Assembly (NCBI GenBank): GCA_014691105.1
Contig: GCA_014691105.1_4891.1
Source of the DNA: a phage
Length of the DNA: 52,976 bases
Reading direction: 5' to 3' (one strand)
In this document: positions 145 through 5,456 of the stretch, one piece after another
Position numbering within the stretch: the first letter of the stretch is position 1
Layout: each line of letters begins with the position of its first letter
Made by a program: the position numbers and the translations under genes
The notes under the pieces: model-generated
Seen by the model: only the letters and a program-made list of their open reading frames with translations
Database searches by the model: none
Told to the model about the DNA's origin: nothing

Positions 145-651
145 ATGGATCCAATTGTAAAAGTATTTGAAGGTAAAAATATCACATTTTCATCAATTAA
201 GAGGGGTACCAAAATGGCATCCCTCATTGTTGTTAAAGGAAGCGATTTAGCTAAAGCGCTGGGCTACAGCTACGCGGAAAAACTTTATAAAAGGTTAGAC
301 AGCGATTATAAAATTACTGATGACAAAGGAGCAGTATGGGCAACTGAACCTGGTATTTATCAGGCTATATTCGGTTCGCAGCTTGAATCAGCTAAAGCAT
401 TTCAGCGCTGGGCATACGAAGAAGTATTTCCCACCATTCGTGGGAATGGTTATTACGTTACACCAGAGCTTCAACCAGCGCTGGATCTACTGTCTGATGA
501 AATAGACTTACTACGTGCATATGCTACAGCTGACTGCCACGGAAGAGCAAGGCTTAAGTCAAGAATTATGACGGTATGGAAAAAACAAGTAGAAAATGGT
601 AACTCTTTGGACCGCGTAGTCCAGATTTTAAAAGGAAACAGTGCATGGTAA
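145..651 (+). CDS. Bro-N/KilA-N domain protein (antirepressor-like DNA-binding protein)
   Basis: N-terminal VKVFEGKNITF...VVKGSDLAKALGY resembles the Bro-N motif; the ORF track starts at GTG 70 but in-frame ATGs at 130/145 precede the domain; stop overlaps the next start (ATGGTAA). Confidence 0.5.
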   Translation: MDPIVKVFEGKNITFSSIKRGTKMASLIVVKGSDLAKALGYSYAEKLYKRLDSDYKITDDKGAVWATEPGIYQAIFGSQLESAKAFQRWAYEEVFPTIRGNGYYVTPELQPALDLLSDEIDLLRAYATADCHGRARLKSRIMTVWKKQVENGNSLDRVVQILKGNSAW

Positions 652-1076
652 ATATTCGTGTTATTGGCCAGAACTTTGAGAGAAAGATGGCTAAAAAATT
701 CAACGAATCTTTTGGACTTGACTGCCAGCGTAACCTGCAGCAATCAATAAATGGCGGGGATGACTTGCTTGGTGTACCGTTTTTCAGCGTTGAACTGAAG
801 AAGCACAAGACCAAGTCTATCGGAACATGGTGGAGACAGTGTGCGGCATCAGCAAAGGCTCAGAACAAGATGCCGGTACTGATATACGAACTACCAAGAA
901 AACAGCCTACCGTGGTGATGAATAAGGCTGATGTGATTGACTGTTTTCCAAGTGGCACGACTTTTAACGAGGCATCGAACCGCCTCTTTGTGGGTCTAGT
1001 AGAATTAACATGGGAACAATTTTGCCGGGTCTACAACTATTACGTTGCGCCCGGCACTCAATATCACGTCAATTAA
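645..1076 (+). CDS. putative PD-(D/E)XK nuclease, Hjc-like resolvase fold
   Basis: GQNFERK...GGDDLLGV...FFSVELKK matches a G.FER / D / E.K nuclease motif arrangement; translationally coupled to the upstream Bro gene. Confidence 0.4.
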   Translation: MVNIRVIGQNFERKMAKKFNESFGLDCQRNLQQSINGGDDLLGVPFFSVELKKHKTKSIGTWWRQCAASAKAQNKMPVLIYELPRKQPTVVMNKADVIDCFPSGTTFNEASNRLFVGLVELTWEQFCRVYNYYVAPGTQYHVN

Positions 1077-1258
1077 TCTTGTTTCAGCTCGTCGCAAATA
1101 ACACGCTGATTTTTGGCGGGGATAATACCAAGATTTAGCAGGGTGTATGGACTATCAGCGACGCATTGTTCAACGGTAGTCCATTCAGGTTTGGATTCAA
1201 CAATTTCGTAATTACAGTCGTGAGCTGCAATACATGTTGCCAGGATTAAGCCAATCAC
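1073..1258 (-). CDS. hypothetical small early protein
   Basis: ORF track; GTG start overlaps the stop of an upstream unlisted small ORF (GTGA). Confidence 0.4.
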   Translation of the reverse strand: MIGLILATCIAAHDCNYEIVESKPEWTTVEQCVADSPYTLLNLGIIPAKNQRVICDELKQD

Positions 1259-1434
1259 AAGTAATCTCCATCAACCAGAAACTCAAACAATTGGTTGTAG
1301 ACGTTGCAACCTTTAGCGAAAGAGCTTTCAGCAGGTTTACCATCGCGGACAATCATCATATACTCACCGCCATGGATGTCCACCCAGTATTGCATGCCAC
1401 CTTTGACCGGATTACGTTGCAGAAATTTAAACAT
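1255..1434 (-). CDS. hypothetical small protein (59 aa, below ORF-track cutoff)
   Basis: Hand translation of the minus strand gives MFKFLQRNPVKGGMQYWVDIHGGEYMMIVRDGKPAESSFAKGCNVYNQLFEFLVDGDYL; ATG overlaps the upstream stop (TAATG) and its TGA overlaps the downstream GTG. Confidence 0.4.
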   Translation of the reverse strand: MFKFLQRNPVKGGMQYWVDIHGGEYMMIVRDGKPAESSFAKGCNVYNQLFEFLVDGDYL

Positions 1435-1679
1435 TATTTGCTCCTGATTCCAAGTTTATTCAATAACCAAATTGTCATGTCAACCCAGGTTAACGGTACA
1501 GTTTTCGGGGGTTGATAATCCCAGCAGCTTGCAGTTCTTTGTATTTCTGCTTGGCGCCGCTCCGCTTCGCGTAATACCGCATCGTCAGAAGTGCCGGCAG
1601 AAAAAAGATCGGTAACACCAGATAAATCGCGTTGATTAACACGTCGAGCAATGTCATATAAATCATCCTTAGAAAACAT
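1434..1679 (-). CDS. hypothetical protein
   Basis: ORF track, same strand as neighbours, coupled to downstream gene. Confidence 0.45.
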   Translation of the reverse strand: MFSKDDLYDIARRVNQRDLSGVTDLFSAGTSDDAVLREAERRQAEIQRTASCWDYQPPKTVPLTWVDMTIWLLNKLGIRSK

Positions 1680-1855
1680 AAGCCAATACCATAAGAATTA
1701 TCAGAAAGATCCCAACCAGCTTCCTCATAGCCCGACCTTCAGCATATGCAGGATTCACAACAGAATACTCAACAACATGTTTACAGCGGACCATAAGGCC
1801 TCCACTTGTGGGTTAATTCAATCATGAGGACTTTTGGCAAATCCTCATTGTTGAA

Positions 1856-2059
1856 TCACTCCATCATTACCTGAACTATTATTATACACTCTTTATTGAA
1901 GCGGGTAAACACCTTTCCTCCATTGGTGCGTTTAGCCCCAGATTTTAGAGCTGACTGGCACCAGACCTGCCACTCCTCAACTGTCAAGAATTTTTGCTCA
2001 GCTTTGGGTGGTAGTCCATTGGCAAGGTCTACCGTAGTAAATTTGACTAATGGCATCAC
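1856..2059 (-). CDS. hypothetical protein
   Basis: ORF track; start overlaps the stop of the 2056..2478 gene. Confidence 0.4.
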   Translation of the reverse strand: MMPLVKFTTVDLANGLPPKAEQKFLTVEEWQVWCQSALKSGAKRTNGGKVFTRFNKECIIIVQVMME

Positions 2060-2478
2060 TTGACCTCAAATTTTGACTCGTCATATTCCGGATCAGTCAC
2101 GTCCCGGGTCGCACAATTTTTGATTGCCTCCCAGTAACGTTGGGCGTCATCGCCATCGACATAAACTGTCCAGTGGCCGTAACCACCTTCAAATCTGTCC
2201 CAGGCTTGTTCCCAGACTTTGCCATCTTCCAGCTTGTACCAAGTTGGACGACTGTCAAACTCGCGGATTGGATGGTACCCCATCAAAGGATTCATCAGGT
2301 CAATAATGTCTTCCCGACTAATCTCCTGGTTCTCCCACAGCACCGTCATGAATTGCTCAAACTTGAAGGCGTTTGGCAGAACTTTGATGACTTCACCATC
2401 ACGATATACGGTATAGGTGCCATCTTCGCATTTTGCACTGTACATGTTTCTCTCTCCTATTGATATAATTTCAATCAT
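2056..2478 (-). CDS. hypothetical protein (140 aa)
   Basis: ORF track; no recognisable motif. Confidence 0.5.
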   Translation of the reverse strand: MIEIISIGERNMYSAKCEDGTYTVYRDGEVIKVLPNAFKFEQFMTVLWENQEISREDIIDLMNPLMGYHPIREFDSRPTWYKLEDGKVWEQAWDRFEGGYGHWTVYVDGDDAQRYWEAIKNCATRDVTDPEYDESKFEVK

Positions 2479-2513
2479 GAACTATCACAACTTTGGATAG
2501 TTCATTGTTGAAA

Positions 2514-2702
2514 CTATACTAACTTTGTTGCGATCTGAATTGTCAGCCGGAAATCTTCCATCAAGTTATCAAACTCTTTGGAACCACCAACAGCATCAGA
2601 TATTTGATCTTTCACGATTTGGGCATTTGATTCCAGTAATTCAATCAGGTGCGCCAATTCGTCTTCAGTCAATTTCAGGTCTTTCATAATGCATCCACCC
2701 AA
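2514..2702 (-). CDS. small early protein, MKDLKLT paralogue family member 1
   Basis: Likely true start at internal Met (about 2687) giving MKDLKLTEDELAHLIELLES...; N-terminus shared with two other small ORFs. Confidence 0.5.
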   Translation of the reverse strand: MGGCIMKDLKLTEDELAHLIELLESNAQIVKDQISDAVGGSKEFDNLMEDFRLTIQIATKLV

Positions 2703-2941
2703 GCCATAACTTTTGCCAGTCTTACAACGTCTTCATGGTCCCGCTCGCCATCAGAAAATTCGCTGGCGATGATACCCATAATTGACGCCAGATTCATGTT
2801 GATGATGTAGGCGTGTTGGCGCACTTCATCAATTCCTGAATCTATCACCAGTTCCGCAAATTCTTGTGAACCTTCATCCCATTCAGCCCAATACTGCTCA
2901 GCATAAAAGTCCAGTTCTTTTTTCATCTCAATATCAGTCAT
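2684..2941 (-). CDS. hypothetical acidic protein (85 aa)
   Basis: ORF track. Confidence 0.5.
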   Translation of the reverse strand: MTDIEMKKELDFYAEQYWAEWDEGSQEFAELVIDSGIDEVRQHAYIINMNLASIMGIIASEFSDGERDHEDVVRLAKVMAWVDAL

Positions 2942-2946
2942 TTTGA

Positions 2947-3147
2947 TTACTCCTCAGAACCTGAAAATTTGTCGTCAATGGCTTCAACAATATAATCAAG
3001 AGTTGAAGTGTGAGAACTATCAGAAAAAGTGCCCATCTTCTCTAACTCAATCATCATATCCCGCAAGGCCATCGCCTGGTCTTTGGTCAGTTTGATTTTA
3101 AGCATGTTTCTCTCCTGTTGATTGTGAATAATTTCAATTGATGGCAC
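2947..3147 (-). CDS. small early protein, paralogue family member 2
   Basis: Internal Met (about 3105) gives MLKIKLTKDQAMALRDMMIELEKMG..., similar N-terminal pattern to the MKDLKLT proteins. Confidence 0.45.
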   Translation of the reverse strand: MPSIEIIHNQQERNMLKIKLTKDQAMALRDMMIELEKMGTFSDSSHTSTLDYIVEAIDDKFSGSEE

Positions 3148-3169
3148 TACTTGAGTGCCATCTCAAAAA

Positions 3170-3796
3170 TTACTCTTCAGTTTCTTGTGCTTCAGTTTCA
3201 GGTTTTTTGCCAGTTACTGATTTGCCATCAGTCACTTTACCAGATTTTACATCATTACGGTAATAGGACATATAGGATTGGACAACACGTTTTGCCCTAA
3301 TATCATCCGCTTCCATCCCACAGGCTTTCATGGCATCGGCCAGCGCCAATTTGGAATCTTCTTTGTCCATCAAATTGTAGTCCTTGAATACTGCATAGCA
3401 GGTATCTTTGGTTGACGGACCGGATGAAGTTTTGCGGGTGCCACCAGCAGATGCTCGTGTTGTCGCAACTTTGACCTCTTCAACTTCCAGTTGGTTAAGC
3501 TCATCAAATAGGGCTTTCACCAGCACTTCTTTTGAGTCTTTGACACTTACAGAACTTTCATCATTAAGGGACTTAATCATCTTAATGATCTGGTTATTGG
3601 CAAAGTACTGCAGGCTATCCATCTGCACTACAATAGTCCCAAGACTTTCAGTAGTCAGACCAGATTTTACAGACTCGACAGAAAAAGCGGAAGTCAGGTA
3701 AACATAGTTGATAGTAGTCATTGATGTATCCTCGTCAATAGAATTTTGGTAAGCGCCAATCCCTGGCAAGTAAGTCCAAACATGACAACTTGACAA
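3170..3796 (-). CDS. hypothetical protein (up to 208 aa)
   Basis: ORF track; probable start at an internal Met (MTTINYVY...). Confidence 0.5.
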   Translation of the reverse strand: MSSCHVWTYLPGIGAYQNSIDEDTSMTTINYVYLTSAFSVESVKSGLTTESLGTIVVQMDSLQYFANNQIIKMIKSLNDESSVSVKDSKEVLVKALFDELNQLEVEEVKVATTRASAGGTRKTSSGPSTKDTCYAVFKDYNLMDKEDSKLALADAMKACGMEADDIRAKRVVQSYMSYYRNDVKSGKVTDGKSVTGKKPETEAQETEE

Positions 3797-3814
3797 AAGT
3801 TGTCATGATTGAAA

Positions 3815-3994
3815 TCACTTCAATTTGTTAAGTATTTTGGTCAATAGCTCAACTCTTTCTTCCTGGTCAGTAGGGTCAAAGTTTTCAATTGACTCCTTCC
3901 AGTCCTCCAGCAGTTCCTTTTCATTAAATATTGAAATGTCAAGAAATTCAACCAATAACTCAACTTCTTTTTTAGTCAATTTCAAATCTTTCAT
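3815..3994 (-). CDS. small early protein, paralogue family member 3 (59 aa, unlisted)
   Basis: Hand translation: MKDLKLTKKEVELLVEFLDISIFNEKELLEDWKESIENFDPTDQEERVELLTKILNKLK, preceded by a GAGGG-type RBS; the overlapping plus ORF 3825..4025 is low-complexity and probably spurious. Confidence 0.5.
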   Translation of the reverse strand: MKDLKLTKKEVELLVEFLDISIFNEKELLEDWKESIENFDPTDQEERVELLTKILNKLK

Positions 3995-4008
3995 CTTGTA
4001 TGACCCTC

Positions 4009-4212
4009 TTACCCTTGATATTTGACTACTTGCGACTGGATGAAATCAACACAATCTTCCACGTCCATTGATTCAAAATCTGGAACTGGTCCATTATTAA
4101 TGTTGACACACCATAGCCCTTCATTACAATCGTACCAAAGCGTATAGTTGTCTTTCATAATAGTTACTCCTGCTATTAGTTTCCAGGCGTGGCTACTGCT
4201 TCCAATAGCCAC
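4009..4212 (-). CDS. hypothetical small Cys-containing protein
   Basis: ORF track; likely start at internal Met (MKDNYTLWYDCNEG...) preceded by AGGAG. Confidence 0.4.
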   Translation of the reverse strand: MAIGSSSHAWKLIAGVTIMKDNYTLWYDCNEGLWCVNINNGPVPDFESMDVEDCVDFIQSQVVKYQG

Positions 4213-4518
4213 TAGTTGAAACTATTACCAGCGTTACTATCAACAAGAAACATGTTACCAAATTGTTAAAGAGCGGTCTGGTACTATTCGACCAGGTAAA
4301 GTTATTATTTGCGCATCTTGACGACACGCGCCAGACAAGACGCTTGACACATTCATCATTCGTCTTGATGTAATAATTATAGGCCAGTCAATCAATGTTG
4401 TACATAAAAGAATTGCAAGTTTATGCAAGTTTTTAGAAATGATAATCACTTGCGATTGAGAGTGGTTCTCATATGCAATTGATATAGTTTCACATGTAAT
4501 TACTCACTTCAAAATGGT

Positions 4519-4575
4519 CGGCAGGGGTTATAATCACATAGGGGTGCCACTTAAAGGAGCCGGCGAAATTATTTA
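4519..4575. repeat. copy 1 of a ~55-bp intergenic repeat (GGGGTTATAAT..AGGGGTGCCAC..AGGAGCCGGCGAAATT)
   Basis: Aligns at roughly 70% identity with 4693..4750 when read by eye; contains a perfect TATAAT. Confidence 0.6.
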
Positions 4576-4692
4576 TAAAAATATAATTTCAATCTGAATT
4601 ATAGACGCTTTGTGCTATAACGGCTGAAGTAGTTCATACGGTAATTGTATCAATCGCAATAGTTACCAGAGTAATCATTTCAATTGAAATAG

Positions 4693-4750
4693 GTGCGGCG
4701 GGGGGTAATTTCGCAGGGGTGCTACCTGCCAGGAGCCAGCGGAATTTTTT
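4693..4750. repeat. copy 2 of the intergenic repeat (GGGGGTAATTT..AGGGGTGCTAC..AGGAGCCAGCGGAATT)
   Basis: See copy 1; both lie in the divergent control region between the leftward and rightward early genes. Confidence 0.6.
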
Positions 4751-4967
4751 ATTTTTTCTCTATTTTCTCCTTATCAGGACCAATCATCATCAGAGTAACA
4801 CGGCAGGAGCTAACCTTTTGCTTATCACAATAATAAGTGAAGCCCCTCTAAAATTTTTTTATATTTTTCGGAAATTGTGTAGACACTCACTAAAAAGTGG
4901 TGTACTTTCTCTCCTCCACGCGCTATCATTAATGTGAATCATCAAACGGCCTCACGGTCTCCTACTT

Positions 4968-5456
4968 GTGGGTAACATTATGAAAATTGTTCAATTAGAG
5001 CCATATCCGCCTCAATTGGCTATCGTTTGCAGCGAAAAAGAGCACGAAGAGCTCCAAAAACTGATGGATTTGCCTGATTTTGGCAACTGGAATGACCGGG
5101 AAACACGTAATGCATCTACCTTTACATTCTCTCGCGTTAACTATCCGTACCTGTTAATCGTCGTCGAACTGTACCACCCGGACGACCTGAAGTACAACAC
5201 CATTTCCCACGAGGGCATTCACGTAATGTCGTCGCTGATGAACTATGTAGGGCTTAAATACGACCCAGAAAACGATGAATGGTACGCATATCAGCATGAT
5301 TTCATCGTAAATGCCATTTGTAAGGCCCATGACGAGTATATAGAGCGCCAAAAAACGCCAAAAACTAAGCCAAAAATAGAAACAGGTAACCATCCTGCAA
5401 TACTGCCACAAGACGTAATGAACTCGCTTTTGACTGACACTACTGGGGACTTTTAG
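4968..5456 (+). CDS. hypothetical protein with HExxH motif (possible zinc metallopeptidase-like)
   Basis: HEGIH motif in ISHEGIHVMSSL; first gene of the rightward block; start could be GTG 4968 or ATG 4980. Confidence 0.45.
   Translation: MGNIMKIVQLEPYPPQLAIVCSEKEHEELQKLMDLPDFGNWNDRETRNASTFTFSRVNYPYLLIVVELYHPDDLKYNTISHEGIHVMSSLMNYVGLKYDPENDEWYAYQHDFIVNAICKAHDEYIERQKTPKTKPKIETGNHPAILPQDVMNSLLTDTTGDF

What the first reader, a model, noticed from the sequence alone, without database searches (positions are those of the whole stretch)
2514..3994. Three-member paralogous family of small early proteins sharing an MKDLKLT N-terminus
Three small leftward genes begin MKDLKLTEDELAHLIELLES, MKDLKLTKKEVELLVEFLDIS and MLKIKLTKDQAMALRDMMIELEK when read from internal or unlisted starts. 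One (3815..3994) is below the ORF-track size cutoff and was found by hand translation. Duplicated small early proteins are typical of host-takeover or anti-defence factors.
Basis: seen in the sequence. Interest (0 to 1): 0.6.

Follow-up and report, generated by a model that had tools for sequence, protein, structure and literature searches.

The report
Swappable small early-gene cassettes in phage
Three tiny acidic genes in the terminal-repeat region of a Salmonella/E. coli Rosemountvirus are real, but only two of them are demonstrably related, and only over their first 21 residues; related phages swap or lose all three as accessory cassettes, and their function is unknown.

Summary
The window is a BP63-like Rosemountvirus. 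The three ORFs exist as described. A is 2514..2687 (57 aa), C is 2947..3105 (52 aa) and B is 3815..3994 (59 aa), all on the minus strand. All three are already annotated as hypothetical proteins in relatives and are under purifying selection. A and B share a homologous N-terminal 21 residues (hhalign 91%, E 1e-6), encoded by a near-identical 21-nt stretch found only twice in the window. Their C-terminal two thirds are not detectably similar. C shares only an in-register [IL]KLT motif (hhalign <1%), which looks like a common helix-capping pattern. A "three-member paralogous family" is therefore only partly supported.

Comparison with relatives shows that A-, B- and C-type genes occupy the same slots in closely related genomes. 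B precisely replaces A in one lineage, sits in tandem with A in another, and C-g85-A is deleted in a third. The crossovers lie in the shared 5' codons or ribosome-binding-site repeats and at conserved bipartite hairpins. The block lies inside the roughly 4.3-kb direct terminal repeat, which fits early expression.

No family, fold or defence-library match gives a function. The A orthologue of phage fHy-Eco03 was at most weakly toxic in a published screen. This is an ordinary phage hyperplastic ORFan region, resembling the modular shuffling seen in T4-type phages.

The parts
2514..2687 (-). Gene A, 57 aa (MKDLKLTEDELAHLIELLES...), pI 4.4. It is the most widely conserved of the three, being present in Rosemountvirus, Loughboroughvirus and fHy-Eco03-like phages. 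Its start overlaps the g85 stop (ATGA).
   Evidence: It matches phrog_29626 at E 5.5e-43 and occurs in 54 phage records. Against phage emhyr there are 0 nonsynonymous and 5 synonymous differences. AF2 predicts two helices, 8-32 and 37-55, at pLDDT 74.
3815..3994 (-). Gene B, 59 aa (MKDLKLTKKEVELLVEFLDIS...), pI 4.6, GC 33%. It is a rare allele of a variable gene (variants B', B''').
   Evidence: AF2 on the single sequence predicts three helices, 8-21, 26-37 and 44-58, at pLDDT 71. It has no significant PHROG match; its best hit is the A family at E 0.088.
2947..3105 (-). Gene C, 52 aa (MLKIKLTKDQAMALRDMM...), pI 4.6. It is the first gene of the C-g85-A module. It is not demonstrably related to A or B.
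   Evidence: It matches phrog_35350 at E 1.7e-40 and occurs in 45 phage records. The divergent allele C' is 41% identical. hhalign against A and B gives <1%. Against emhyr there is 1 nonsynonymous and 8 synonymous differences.
2667..2687 (-). The shared 21-nt 5' coding stretch ATGAAAGACCTGAAATTGACT (A copy). It is used as a crossover site in relatives.
3974..3994 (-). The shared 21-nt 5' coding stretch ATGAAAGATTTGAAATTGACT (B copy).
2684..2941 (-). g85, an 85-aa acidic ORFan translationally coupled to A. In other phages it is coupled to B or to g49 instead.
4009..4158 (-). g49, a 49-aa ORFan (MKDNYTLWYD...) immediately upstream of B. In relatives, the g49 or g49-like gene is followed by B, B', B''', A or C'.
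3170..3721 (-). g183, a 183-aa ORFan that forms its own hairpin-bounded module between B and C.
2464..2518 (-). Bipartite hairpin directly after A: lower stem TTTCAA/TTGAAA, upper stem ATGAACTATC/GATAGTTCAT. It forms the 3' boundary of the cassette slot.
   Evidence: I2. One search gives -25.8 kcal/mol, z -6.3. The same hairpin follows B, B''' or C' where those genes sit in this slot.
3768..3820 (-). Bipartite hairpin directly after B (upper stem ATGACAACTT/AAGTTGTCAT). It overlaps the B stop codon.
   Evidence: I3. One search gives -23.8 kcal/mol, z -4.2. The hairpin after B' carries compensatory stem changes.
3126..3175 (-). Hairpin after g183, a variant of the same element. It is followed by the repeated leader ATTGAAATTAT...AGGAGAGAAACATG of C.
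   Evidence: It is annotated as a repeat_region in phages emhyr and rivia.
2443..2476 (-). Repeated leader and ribosome-binding site (GATTGAAATTATATCAATAGGAGAGAGAAACATG) before g129. It is a partner of the leader before C (3103..3140). The crossover that deleted C-g85-A in SPLA11 and AV127 lies between these two copies.
   Evidence: (D17).
530..4737 (.). Inferred extent of the direct terminal repeat that contains the whole leftward small-gene block.
   Evidence: The vB_SalM_Sz record has an exact 4263-bp terminal repeat whose inner end maps to window position 4737. fHy-Eco03 has a 3699-bp repeat determined with PhageTerm that covers the homologous genes. The outer end is approximate.

Best explanation
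A, B and C are real, translated-looking accessory genes. They lie in a low-GC block of tiny acidic ORFans inside the direct terminal repeat of a Rosemountvirus.

A and B share a homologous N-terminal module of about 21 residues: an extended MKDLKLT segment followed by a capped amphipathic helix. Their C-terminal parts differ (two-helix versus three-helix models). C shares only a short in-register motif with them.

The three behave as interchangeable cassettes. Closely related phages carry an A-type, B-type or C-type gene at exactly the same slot. Whole modules are swapped, duplicated in tandem or deleted. On the 5' side, the crossovers lie in the first 10-30 nt of the coding sequence or in a repeated leader and ribosome-binding site. 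On the 3' side they lie at a conserved bipartite hairpin. Part of the identity of the MKDLKLT start is therefore maintained or spread by recombination. B-lineage alleles carry 0, 7 or 10 N-terminal residues identical to A.

The following steps are inferred, not shown. The block is probably transcribed early from promoters in the 4161-4737 non-coding region towards the genome end. The products are most likely small helical proteins that bind host proteins (modulators of host takeover or counter-defence). They are individually dispensable and not strongly toxic.
For: Gene reality: the genes are annotated in relatives, show purifying selection, and have Shine-Dalgarno sequences or ATGA coupling.

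A-B homology: blastp E 3e-5; hhalign 81% rising to 91%, E 9.5e-7, over columns 1-21; a weaker signal remains for B' alone (22%, E 9e-4); a 63-nt DNA repeat and a unique 21-mer.

C unrelated by sequence.

Cassette behaviour:
- B precisely replaces the A coding sequence with A's flanks in PP583539, and this is confirmed in four independent assemblies.
- B and A sit in tandem in KE24, and A there carries B-type synonymous codons in the 21-mer.
- C-g85-A is deleted in SPLA11, AV127 and other contigs, with the crossover in the repeated leader.
- A g49-B insertion in EcoBD_211 leaves a remnant of A covering aa 40-57.
- fHy-Eco03 (A), L027 (B''') and KE26 (C') have near-identical flanks and the same hairpin around different coding sequences.
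- B''' (P0042) begins MKDLKLTEDE, identical to A's first 10 residues.

Terminal-repeat location.

Low GC: and the S144 'cluster E' description in PMC7432712.

Dispensability: KE26 lacks both A and B, rivia-type phages lack B, and SPLA11 lacks A and C.

Toxicity of fHy-Eco03 g10, which is 73% identical to A: NGS ratio 1.50 and plating fraction 0.46.
Confidence: 0.6

Rival explanations
1. One reading: A, B and C are three true paralogues from duplication of one ancestral small early gene. They share a fold and a common host-takeover or anti-defence function.
For: The in-register motif occurs 3 times against 0.13 expected. Hydrophobic positions 4, 6, 11, 14, 17 and 18 coincide in all three (read from the sequences). 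Size and acidity are similar. All three types occupy the same slot after the g49-like gene in fHy-Eco03-like phages.
Against: C shows no significant similarity to A or B by blastp, shuffling or profile-profile comparison. A and B align only over 21 residues. The exhaustive HMM search with the A profile over 1.84 billion proteins recovers only A-type proteins. Non-homologous replacement at one slot is normal in phage hyperplastic regions (PMC2839356). C and A also co-occur as neighbours (C-g85-A, and C'-A'' in L014), which suggests partners rather than alternatives.
Confidence: 0.25
2. The shared N-terminus has no protein-level meaning. It is a nucleotide-level by-product: a conserved translation-initiation or coupling region and preferred crossover site that incoming cassettes inherit.
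For: Crossovers map inside the first codons or the ribosome-binding site. KE24's A carries B-type synonymous codons. g49, A and B all start ATGAAAGAC/T, and that 11-nt identity was used as a junction in EcoBD_211. B-lineage alleles have A-identical tracts of 0, 7 or 10 residues.
Against: The A N-terminus is conserved at the protein level across genera despite saturated synonymous sites (pS about 0.67). B', which lacks the identical tract, still resembles A over residues 1-21. The similarity extends to codon 19-21, well beyond any initiation region.
Confidence: 0.2
3. B-type proteins are AbbA-like DNA-mimic antirepressors, as the UniRef name of birk_10 ('Antirepressor AbbA') suggests.
For: The UniRef label. 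The proteins are small and acidic, and B has a three-helix model. A weak motif resemblance exists: LTEDELAHLIELL in A versus FTEEEQKLLLNIL in AbbA.
Confidence: 0.04
4. The N-terminal strand plus helices form a ribbon-helix-helix-like DNA-binding regulator of the early region. The palindromic hairpin sequences would be its operators.
For: The alternating h-K-h-T N-terminus followed by helices, and a size of 45-60 aa, resemble RHH proteins (own knowledge). Long palindromes flank the genes.
Against: There are no RHH hits in Pfam or NCBIfam. Net charge is -5 to -7. A's first helix is 25 residues long. Fold searches list no RHH protein.
Confidence: 0.03

Closest known systems
Hyperplastic regions of T4-type phages, with PeSL regulatory cassettes that mediate modular shuffling (Arbiol et al. 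2010, PMC2839356; Comeau et al. 2014, PMC4122927)
   Same: Both are clusters of small non-essential ORFans of unknown function. In both, insertions, deletions and replacements between close relatives have breakpoints in short repeated intergenic regulatory motifs that include stem-loops.
   Different: No strong sigma-70 promoter accompanies the stem-loops here (and inspection). The stems are AT-rich and bipartite and have no T-tail, so they are not obvious terminators. Crossovers also use the first codons of the genes. The region lies in a terminal repeat of a 53-kb myovirus unrelated to T4.
Early or pre-early host-takeover gene blocks in long terminal repeats (T5 pre-early region; SPO1 host-takeover module) - own knowledge
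   Same: Both are blocks of many small genes of unknown function that lie inside the direct terminal repeat and are transcribed as a unit.
   Different: Early timing and host shut-off are shown experimentally for T5 and SPO1, but not for any Rosemountvirus. There is no sequence similarity.
fHy-Eco03 Gp10 (orthologue of A) and PHROG families phrog_29626 (A) and phrog_35350 (C)
   Same: A is 73% identical to Gp10 and is a full-length member of phrog_29626. C is a full-length member of phrog_35350.
   Different: These families have no known function. B and its alleles belong to no PHROG.
AbbA (YkzF, PDB 2LZF), the B. subtilis DNA-mimic antirepressor
   Same: Both are small acidic helical proteins. 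One B' allele carries this name in UniRef.
   Different: No sequence, profile or fold similarity could be reproduced.

Membership tests
   blastp E 3e-5. hhalign 91%, E 9.5e-7, but over residues 1-21 only.
   Without residues 1-20 the shuffle p is 0.15. hhalign alignments stop at column 21-30. The models have 2 versus 3 helices.
   blastp E 0.14 against A and no alignment against B. hhalign probability 0.3-0.8%.
phrog_29626 | Full-length HMM match | tested here: met
   A matches at E 5.5e-43 over 1-57/57. A'' (P0034) matches at E 1.2e-7. B matches only at E 0.088 over residues 1-19, so it is not a member.
phrog_35350 | Full-length HMM match | tested here: met
   C matches at E 1.7e-40. C' matches at E 1.1e-10.
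AbbA antirepressor | Sequence or profile similarity to AbbA (the 2LZF sequence) | tested here: not met
AbbA antirepressor | AbbA-like fold | tested here: not met
PeSL-type mobile regulatory cassettes | Repeated stem-loop motif at module boundaries and at recombination junctions | tested here: met
   Four hairpins delimit the modules. Junctions lie at the hairpins and leaders.
PeSL-type mobile regulatory cassettes | Strong sigma-70 early promoter joined to the stem-loop | tested here: not met
   The promoter scan finds no good match next to the hairpins. The spacing to the next start codon is only 30-40 nt after A and after g183.
PeSL-type mobile regulatory cassettes | The stem-loop acts as a transcription terminator | not testable with these tools
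   The hairpins have no T-tail. This needs Term-seq or reporter assays.
Terminal-repeat early gene block (T5/SPO1-like) | Location inside the direct terminal repeat | tested here: met
   The 4263-bp repeat of vB_SalM_Sz maps to window positions of about 530-4737. The 3699-bp repeat of fHy-Eco03 holds the orthologues.
Terminal-repeat early gene block (T5/SPO1-like) | Transcription immediately after infection, with a host-takeover effect | not testable with these tools
   No transcriptome was found in the library. The only functional datum is the fHy-Eco03 toxicity screen.
Ribbon-helix-helix regulators | RHH profile match, or a strand-helix-helix fold with a basic DNA-binding face | tested here: not met
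   No Pfam or NCBIfam hits. The proteins are acidic. Fold searches list no RHH protein.

The most novel reading that the evidence does not exclude
A, B (with B' and B''') and C form a polymorphic effector cassette system. A conserved N-terminal adaptor segment (strand plus capped helix) is fused to variable C-terminal specificity modules. Recombination at fixed 5'-codon and hairpin boundaries exchanges the cassettes between co-infecting Rosemountvirus-like phages. This would let the phages rapidly change which host factor or defence system their first-expressed proteins neutralise.
Probability: 0.12. Interest if true: 0.6.

Novelty: new member of a known kind. Interest (0 to 1): 0.3.

Why it matters
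If the inference holds, the terminal-repeat block of Rosemountvirus and Loughboroughvirus phages is their host-takeover toolbox, and these phages are widely proposed for Salmonella and E. coli biocontrol. A, B and C would then be natural allelic variants whose presence or absence could influence host range or sensitivity to defence systems. The natural knock-outs identified here (KE26, SPLA11/AV127, rivia-type, PP583539-type) provide a ready comparison panel. The clean junctions are also a compact example of microhomology- and hairpin-bounded cassette exchange outside the T4 group. None of this is surprising to a phage genomicist, and no function has been established.

Tried and rejected
- **Family and structure libraries:** Pfam, NCBIfam and PHROGs function categories, and PDB sequence searches with the A and B profiles, gave no informative hit.
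- **Exhaustive HMM search:** the A profile against 1.84 billion representatives found only A-type proteins plus one divergent A''. It did not link A to B or C.
- **Word-index searches:** these showed that A and B are confined to roughly 53-kb Rosemountvirus-like genomes.
- **AbbA lead:** the UniRef 'Antirepressor AbbA' name was tested and rejected.
- **Ribbon-helix-helix idea:** considered because of the h-K-h-T strand-like start. Rejected on charge, helix lengths and the lack of any profile or fold hit.
- **Rfam:** a scan of 1000-5000 gave only chance-level matches.
- **Promoters:** the sigma-70 scan gave no convincing promoter beside the hairpins, so a strict PeSL assignment was dropped.
- **Covariance model of the hairpins:** started (alignment A7) but abandoned, because MAFFT misaligned the A-type stems.
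- **'At least one of A/B is always present':** this hypothesis was refuted by KE26, which has only C'.
Full report
**Identity of the window.** The region 2300-4300 is 97% identical to Escherichia phage BEC1-17 and Salmonella phage BP63, and 82-94% identical to about 45 other roughly 53-kb myoviruses of the genus Rosemountvirus. The window is essentially one such genome.

**The observation.** On the minus strand there are three small ORFs with exactly the quoted N-termini.
- A runs from ATG 2687 to 2514 and is 57 aa.
- C runs from ATG 3105 to 2947 and is 52 aa.
- B is 3815..3994 and is 59 aa.

The same coordinates are annotated as hypothetical proteins BP63_08, BP63_10 and BP63_12, and in most relatives, so none of them is a new gene call. 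A starts with an ATGA overlap on the stop of an 85-aa gene (g85). C has a strong AGGAGA Shine-Dalgarno sequence, and B has AAGAGGG.

Substitution patterns indicate coding constraint. A has 0 nonsynonymous and 5 synonymous differences against phage emhyr, and pN/pS is about 0.3 against other genera. C has 1 nonsynonymous and 8 synonymous differences. B has 0 and 2.

**Is the resemblance more than chance?** The in-register pattern M-x-x-[LIVM]-K-[LIVM]-T occurs three times among 567 candidate Met-starts, against 0.13 expected, and nowhere else in the six frames.

A against B:
- blastp gives E 3e-5, and shuffling gives a z of about 8. The signal falls to p about 0.03 without residues 1-7 and to 0.15 without residues 1-20.
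- At DNA level the two 5' ends form a 63-nt direct repeat at 71% identity.
- The 21-mer ATGAAAGAYYTGAAATTGACT occurs only at these two starts.
- Profile-profile comparison of 12 A-type sequences with 9 B-type sequences gives 91% probability and E 9.5e-7, covering only columns 1-21 (earlier versions).
- The common allele B' begins MKVLELSQEE and lacks the identical heptapeptide. It still gives a weaker signal of E 9e-4.

C gives nothing: blastp E 0.14 against A and no alignment against B. hhalign probabilities stay between 0.3% and 0.8% even after its 41%-identical allele C' is added.

The exhaustive HMM search with the A profile over 1.84 billion representatives returns only the A family and one divergent member, A'' (P0034). 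It returns neither B nor C.

In the AF2 models, helix 1 begins at residue 8 in both A and B. L6-T7-x-x-E10 therefore looks like a hydrophobic-staple and capping-box motif, a common local pattern (own knowledge). That could explain C's KLTKDQ by convergence.

The models differ otherwise. A has two helices, 8-32 and 37-55, at pLDDT 74. B has three helices at pLDDT 71 and was folded without an alignment.

**Conclusion on the family.** A and B share a homologous N-terminal module. Full-length paralogy is not shown, and C's membership is not demonstrable.

**What the relatives show.** In the direction of transcription, the gene orders are as follows.
- Window and BP63: g49-B | g183 | C-g85-A | g129-g66.
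- emhyr, birk and brunost: B' in place of B.
- rivia-type: an unrelated 100-aa gene in place of g49-B.
- KE24: C-g85-B-A in tandem.
- PP583539: g49-B' | g183 | C-g85-B. Here the B coding sequence replaces the A coding sequence exactly, and the 60 nt upstream and 110 nt downstream are identical to A's flanks.
- SPLA11 and AV127: g49-B | g183 | g129, with C-g85-A missing.
- EcoBD_211 (an unverified record): C-g85-g49-B, followed by a remnant of A covering aa 40-57.
- Loughboroughvirus ZCSE2: g49 | g188 | g87-A.
- fHy-Eco03: g49-like followed by A.
- fHy-Eco03-like contigs L027 and L028: g49-like followed by B'''.
- KE26: g49-like followed by C'.
- Metagenomic contig L014: g49-like-C'-A''.

Independent assemblies confirm the B-in-A-slot arrangement (L019 plus 3 others) and the C-g85-A deletion (L020 plus 2 others).

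Alignment of fHy-Eco03 with L027 and with KE26 shows nearly identical flanks and the same downstream hairpin around three different coding sequences.

**Where the junctions lie.**
- In the shared 21-mer. KE24's A carries the B-type synonymous variants GAT TTG.
- In the 11-nt TTATGAAAGAC shared by the starts of g49 and A.
- In the repeated leader ATTGAAATTAT...AGGAGAGAAACATG, which accounts for the SPLA11 deletion.
- At 5-nt microhomologies next to the hairpin.

B-lineage alleles carry 0 (B'), 7 (B) or 10 (B''', MKDLKLTEDE) N-terminal residues identical to A. This fits conversion tracts of different lengths, although common ancestry cannot be excluded.

**Boundary elements.** Four long AT-rich bipartite hairpins follow g66, A, g183 and B. 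They fold at -21 to -26 kcal/mol, with z between -4.2 and -6.5. The lower stem is TTTCAA/TTGAAA. The upper stem, ATGA...TCAT, varies with compensating changes between copies and between phages.

The motif CAAYxATGA...TCATxxTTGRA occurs only three times in the 53-kb window, all in this block. Perfect hairpins elsewhere are GC-rich with A/T runs, like ordinary terminators. The hairpins have no T-tail, no adjacent strong sigma-70 match and no Rfam match. Whether they act as terminators, RNase III sites or protein-binding sites is open.

**Genomic setting.** The vB_SalM_Sz record carries an exact 4263-bp direct terminal repeat whose inner end maps to window position 4737. fHy-Eco03 has a 3699-bp terminal repeat determined with PhageTerm, and it contains the orthologous genes (PMC8145870). 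For phage S144 the physical end was mapped next to the same low-GC small-gene 'cluster E' (PMC7432712).

The block has 41.7% GC against 46.6% for the rest of the genome, and B has 32.8%. A, B and C therefore lie inside the terminal repeat. By analogy with T5 and SPO1 (own knowledge) this fits early expression, but no transcriptome exists in the searched literature.

UniRef names one B' allele 'Antirepressor AbbA'. I verified the AbbA sequence against PDB 2LZF and found no support for the name: hhalign 0.6%, no blastp alignment, no Pfam hit, and 2LZF absent from the fold matches.

All proteins in the block are acidic, with pI 4.1-4.6.

The only experiment on an orthologue is the fHy-Eco03 toxicity screen. 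For g10, which is 73% identical to A, the NGS ratio was 1.50 (non-toxic) and the plating fraction was 0.46 +/- 0.19 (borderline), and the gene was not pursued.

Natural variants lack A, B or C in various combinations, and KE26 lacks both A and B. Each gene is therefore dispensable.

The most likely mechanism is that these are small helical proteins made first after DNA entry, which bind and modulate host proteins. Their alleles are exchanged between co-infecting relatives. This is an inference, and I put it at about 0.3.

**Comparison with what is known, and verdict.** The behaviour matches phage hyperplastic ORFan regions. The closest match is modular shuffling through PeSL cassettes in T4-type phages (PMC2839356, PMC4122927). 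This region differs in lacking an attached promoter, in using the first codons as crossover sites, and in lying inside a terminal repeat.

The finding is real but ordinary. It consists of two partly homologous genes and one unrelated-looking gene, all already annotated and all of unknown function. The cassette-exchange anatomy is the most useful result. Interest is 0.3.

Noticed in passing
window 1812-1858, 2464-2518, 3126-3175, 3768-3820 (minus strand): A family of long AT-rich bipartite hairpins follows g66, A, g183 and B. The lower stem is conserved (TTTCAA/TTGAAA) and the upper stem covaries (ATGA...TCAT). The motif is confined to the terminal-repeat gene block and is unlike the GC-rich terminators elsewhere in the genome. 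The hairpins could be RNase III processing sites, atypical terminators or protein-binding palindromes.
   Followed up: partly
window 1434-1679 (minus strand): This 81-aa ORF (MFSKDDLYDIARRVNQRDLSG...) is 68% identical to fHy-Eco03 Gp05, which was the one clearly toxic protein in the published E. coli screen (PMC8145870). It is probably the strongest host-takeover candidate in this block.
   Followed up: partly
window ~530-4737: By comparison with vB_SalM_Sz (exact 4263-bp repeat) and fHy-Eco03 (3699 bp), this stretch is the direct terminal repeat. The window holds it only once, as most Rosemountvirus records do. The outer boundary is approximate.
   Followed up: partly
window 4161-4967: This is an roughly 800-bp non-coding, low-GC (38.7%) region between the leftward small-gene block and the rightward DNA-metabolism genes. 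It contains the inner end of the terminal repeat and presumably the divergent early promoters. It was not analysed further.
   Followed up: no
L010 2970-3075 and L011 (SPLA11, AV127); window 2443-2476 and 3103-3140: The C-g85-A module is cleanly deleted in SPLA11 and AV127 and in three further assemblies. The crossover lies between the two copies of the repeated leader ATTGAAATTAT...AGGAGAGAAACATG.
   Followed up: yes
L012 2290-2480 (Escherichia phage vB_EcoBD_211, unverified record): A g49-B module is inserted after g85 and leaves an in-place remnant of A (codons 40-57). The junctions lie at TTATGAAAGAC and at an AACTT microhomology beside the hairpin.
   Followed up: yes
L003 2891-2941 (KE24) versus window 3781-3807: In KE24 the loop of the hairpin after B reads as the reverse complement of the window's loop (GACAA versus TTGTC) between the same palindromic stems. 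This suggests a loop flip or recombination within the stems.
   Followed up: no
L009 (PP583539.1, 'Listeria phage 220426122051'): This record is a typical Rosemountvirus, about 88-100% identical to the window in this region, but it is labelled as a Listeria monocytogenes phage. The host label looks doubtful.
   Followed up: no
window 3815-3994: Gene B has 32.8% GC against 46% for the genome, the lowest value in the block. This suggests recent acquisition from a lower-GC source or relaxed compositional constraint.
   Followed up: no
P0040 (birk_10, B' allele): The UniRef name 'Antirepressor AbbA' for this protein could not be reproduced by any sequence, profile or fold comparison, and it appears to be an annotation artefact.
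   Followed up: yes
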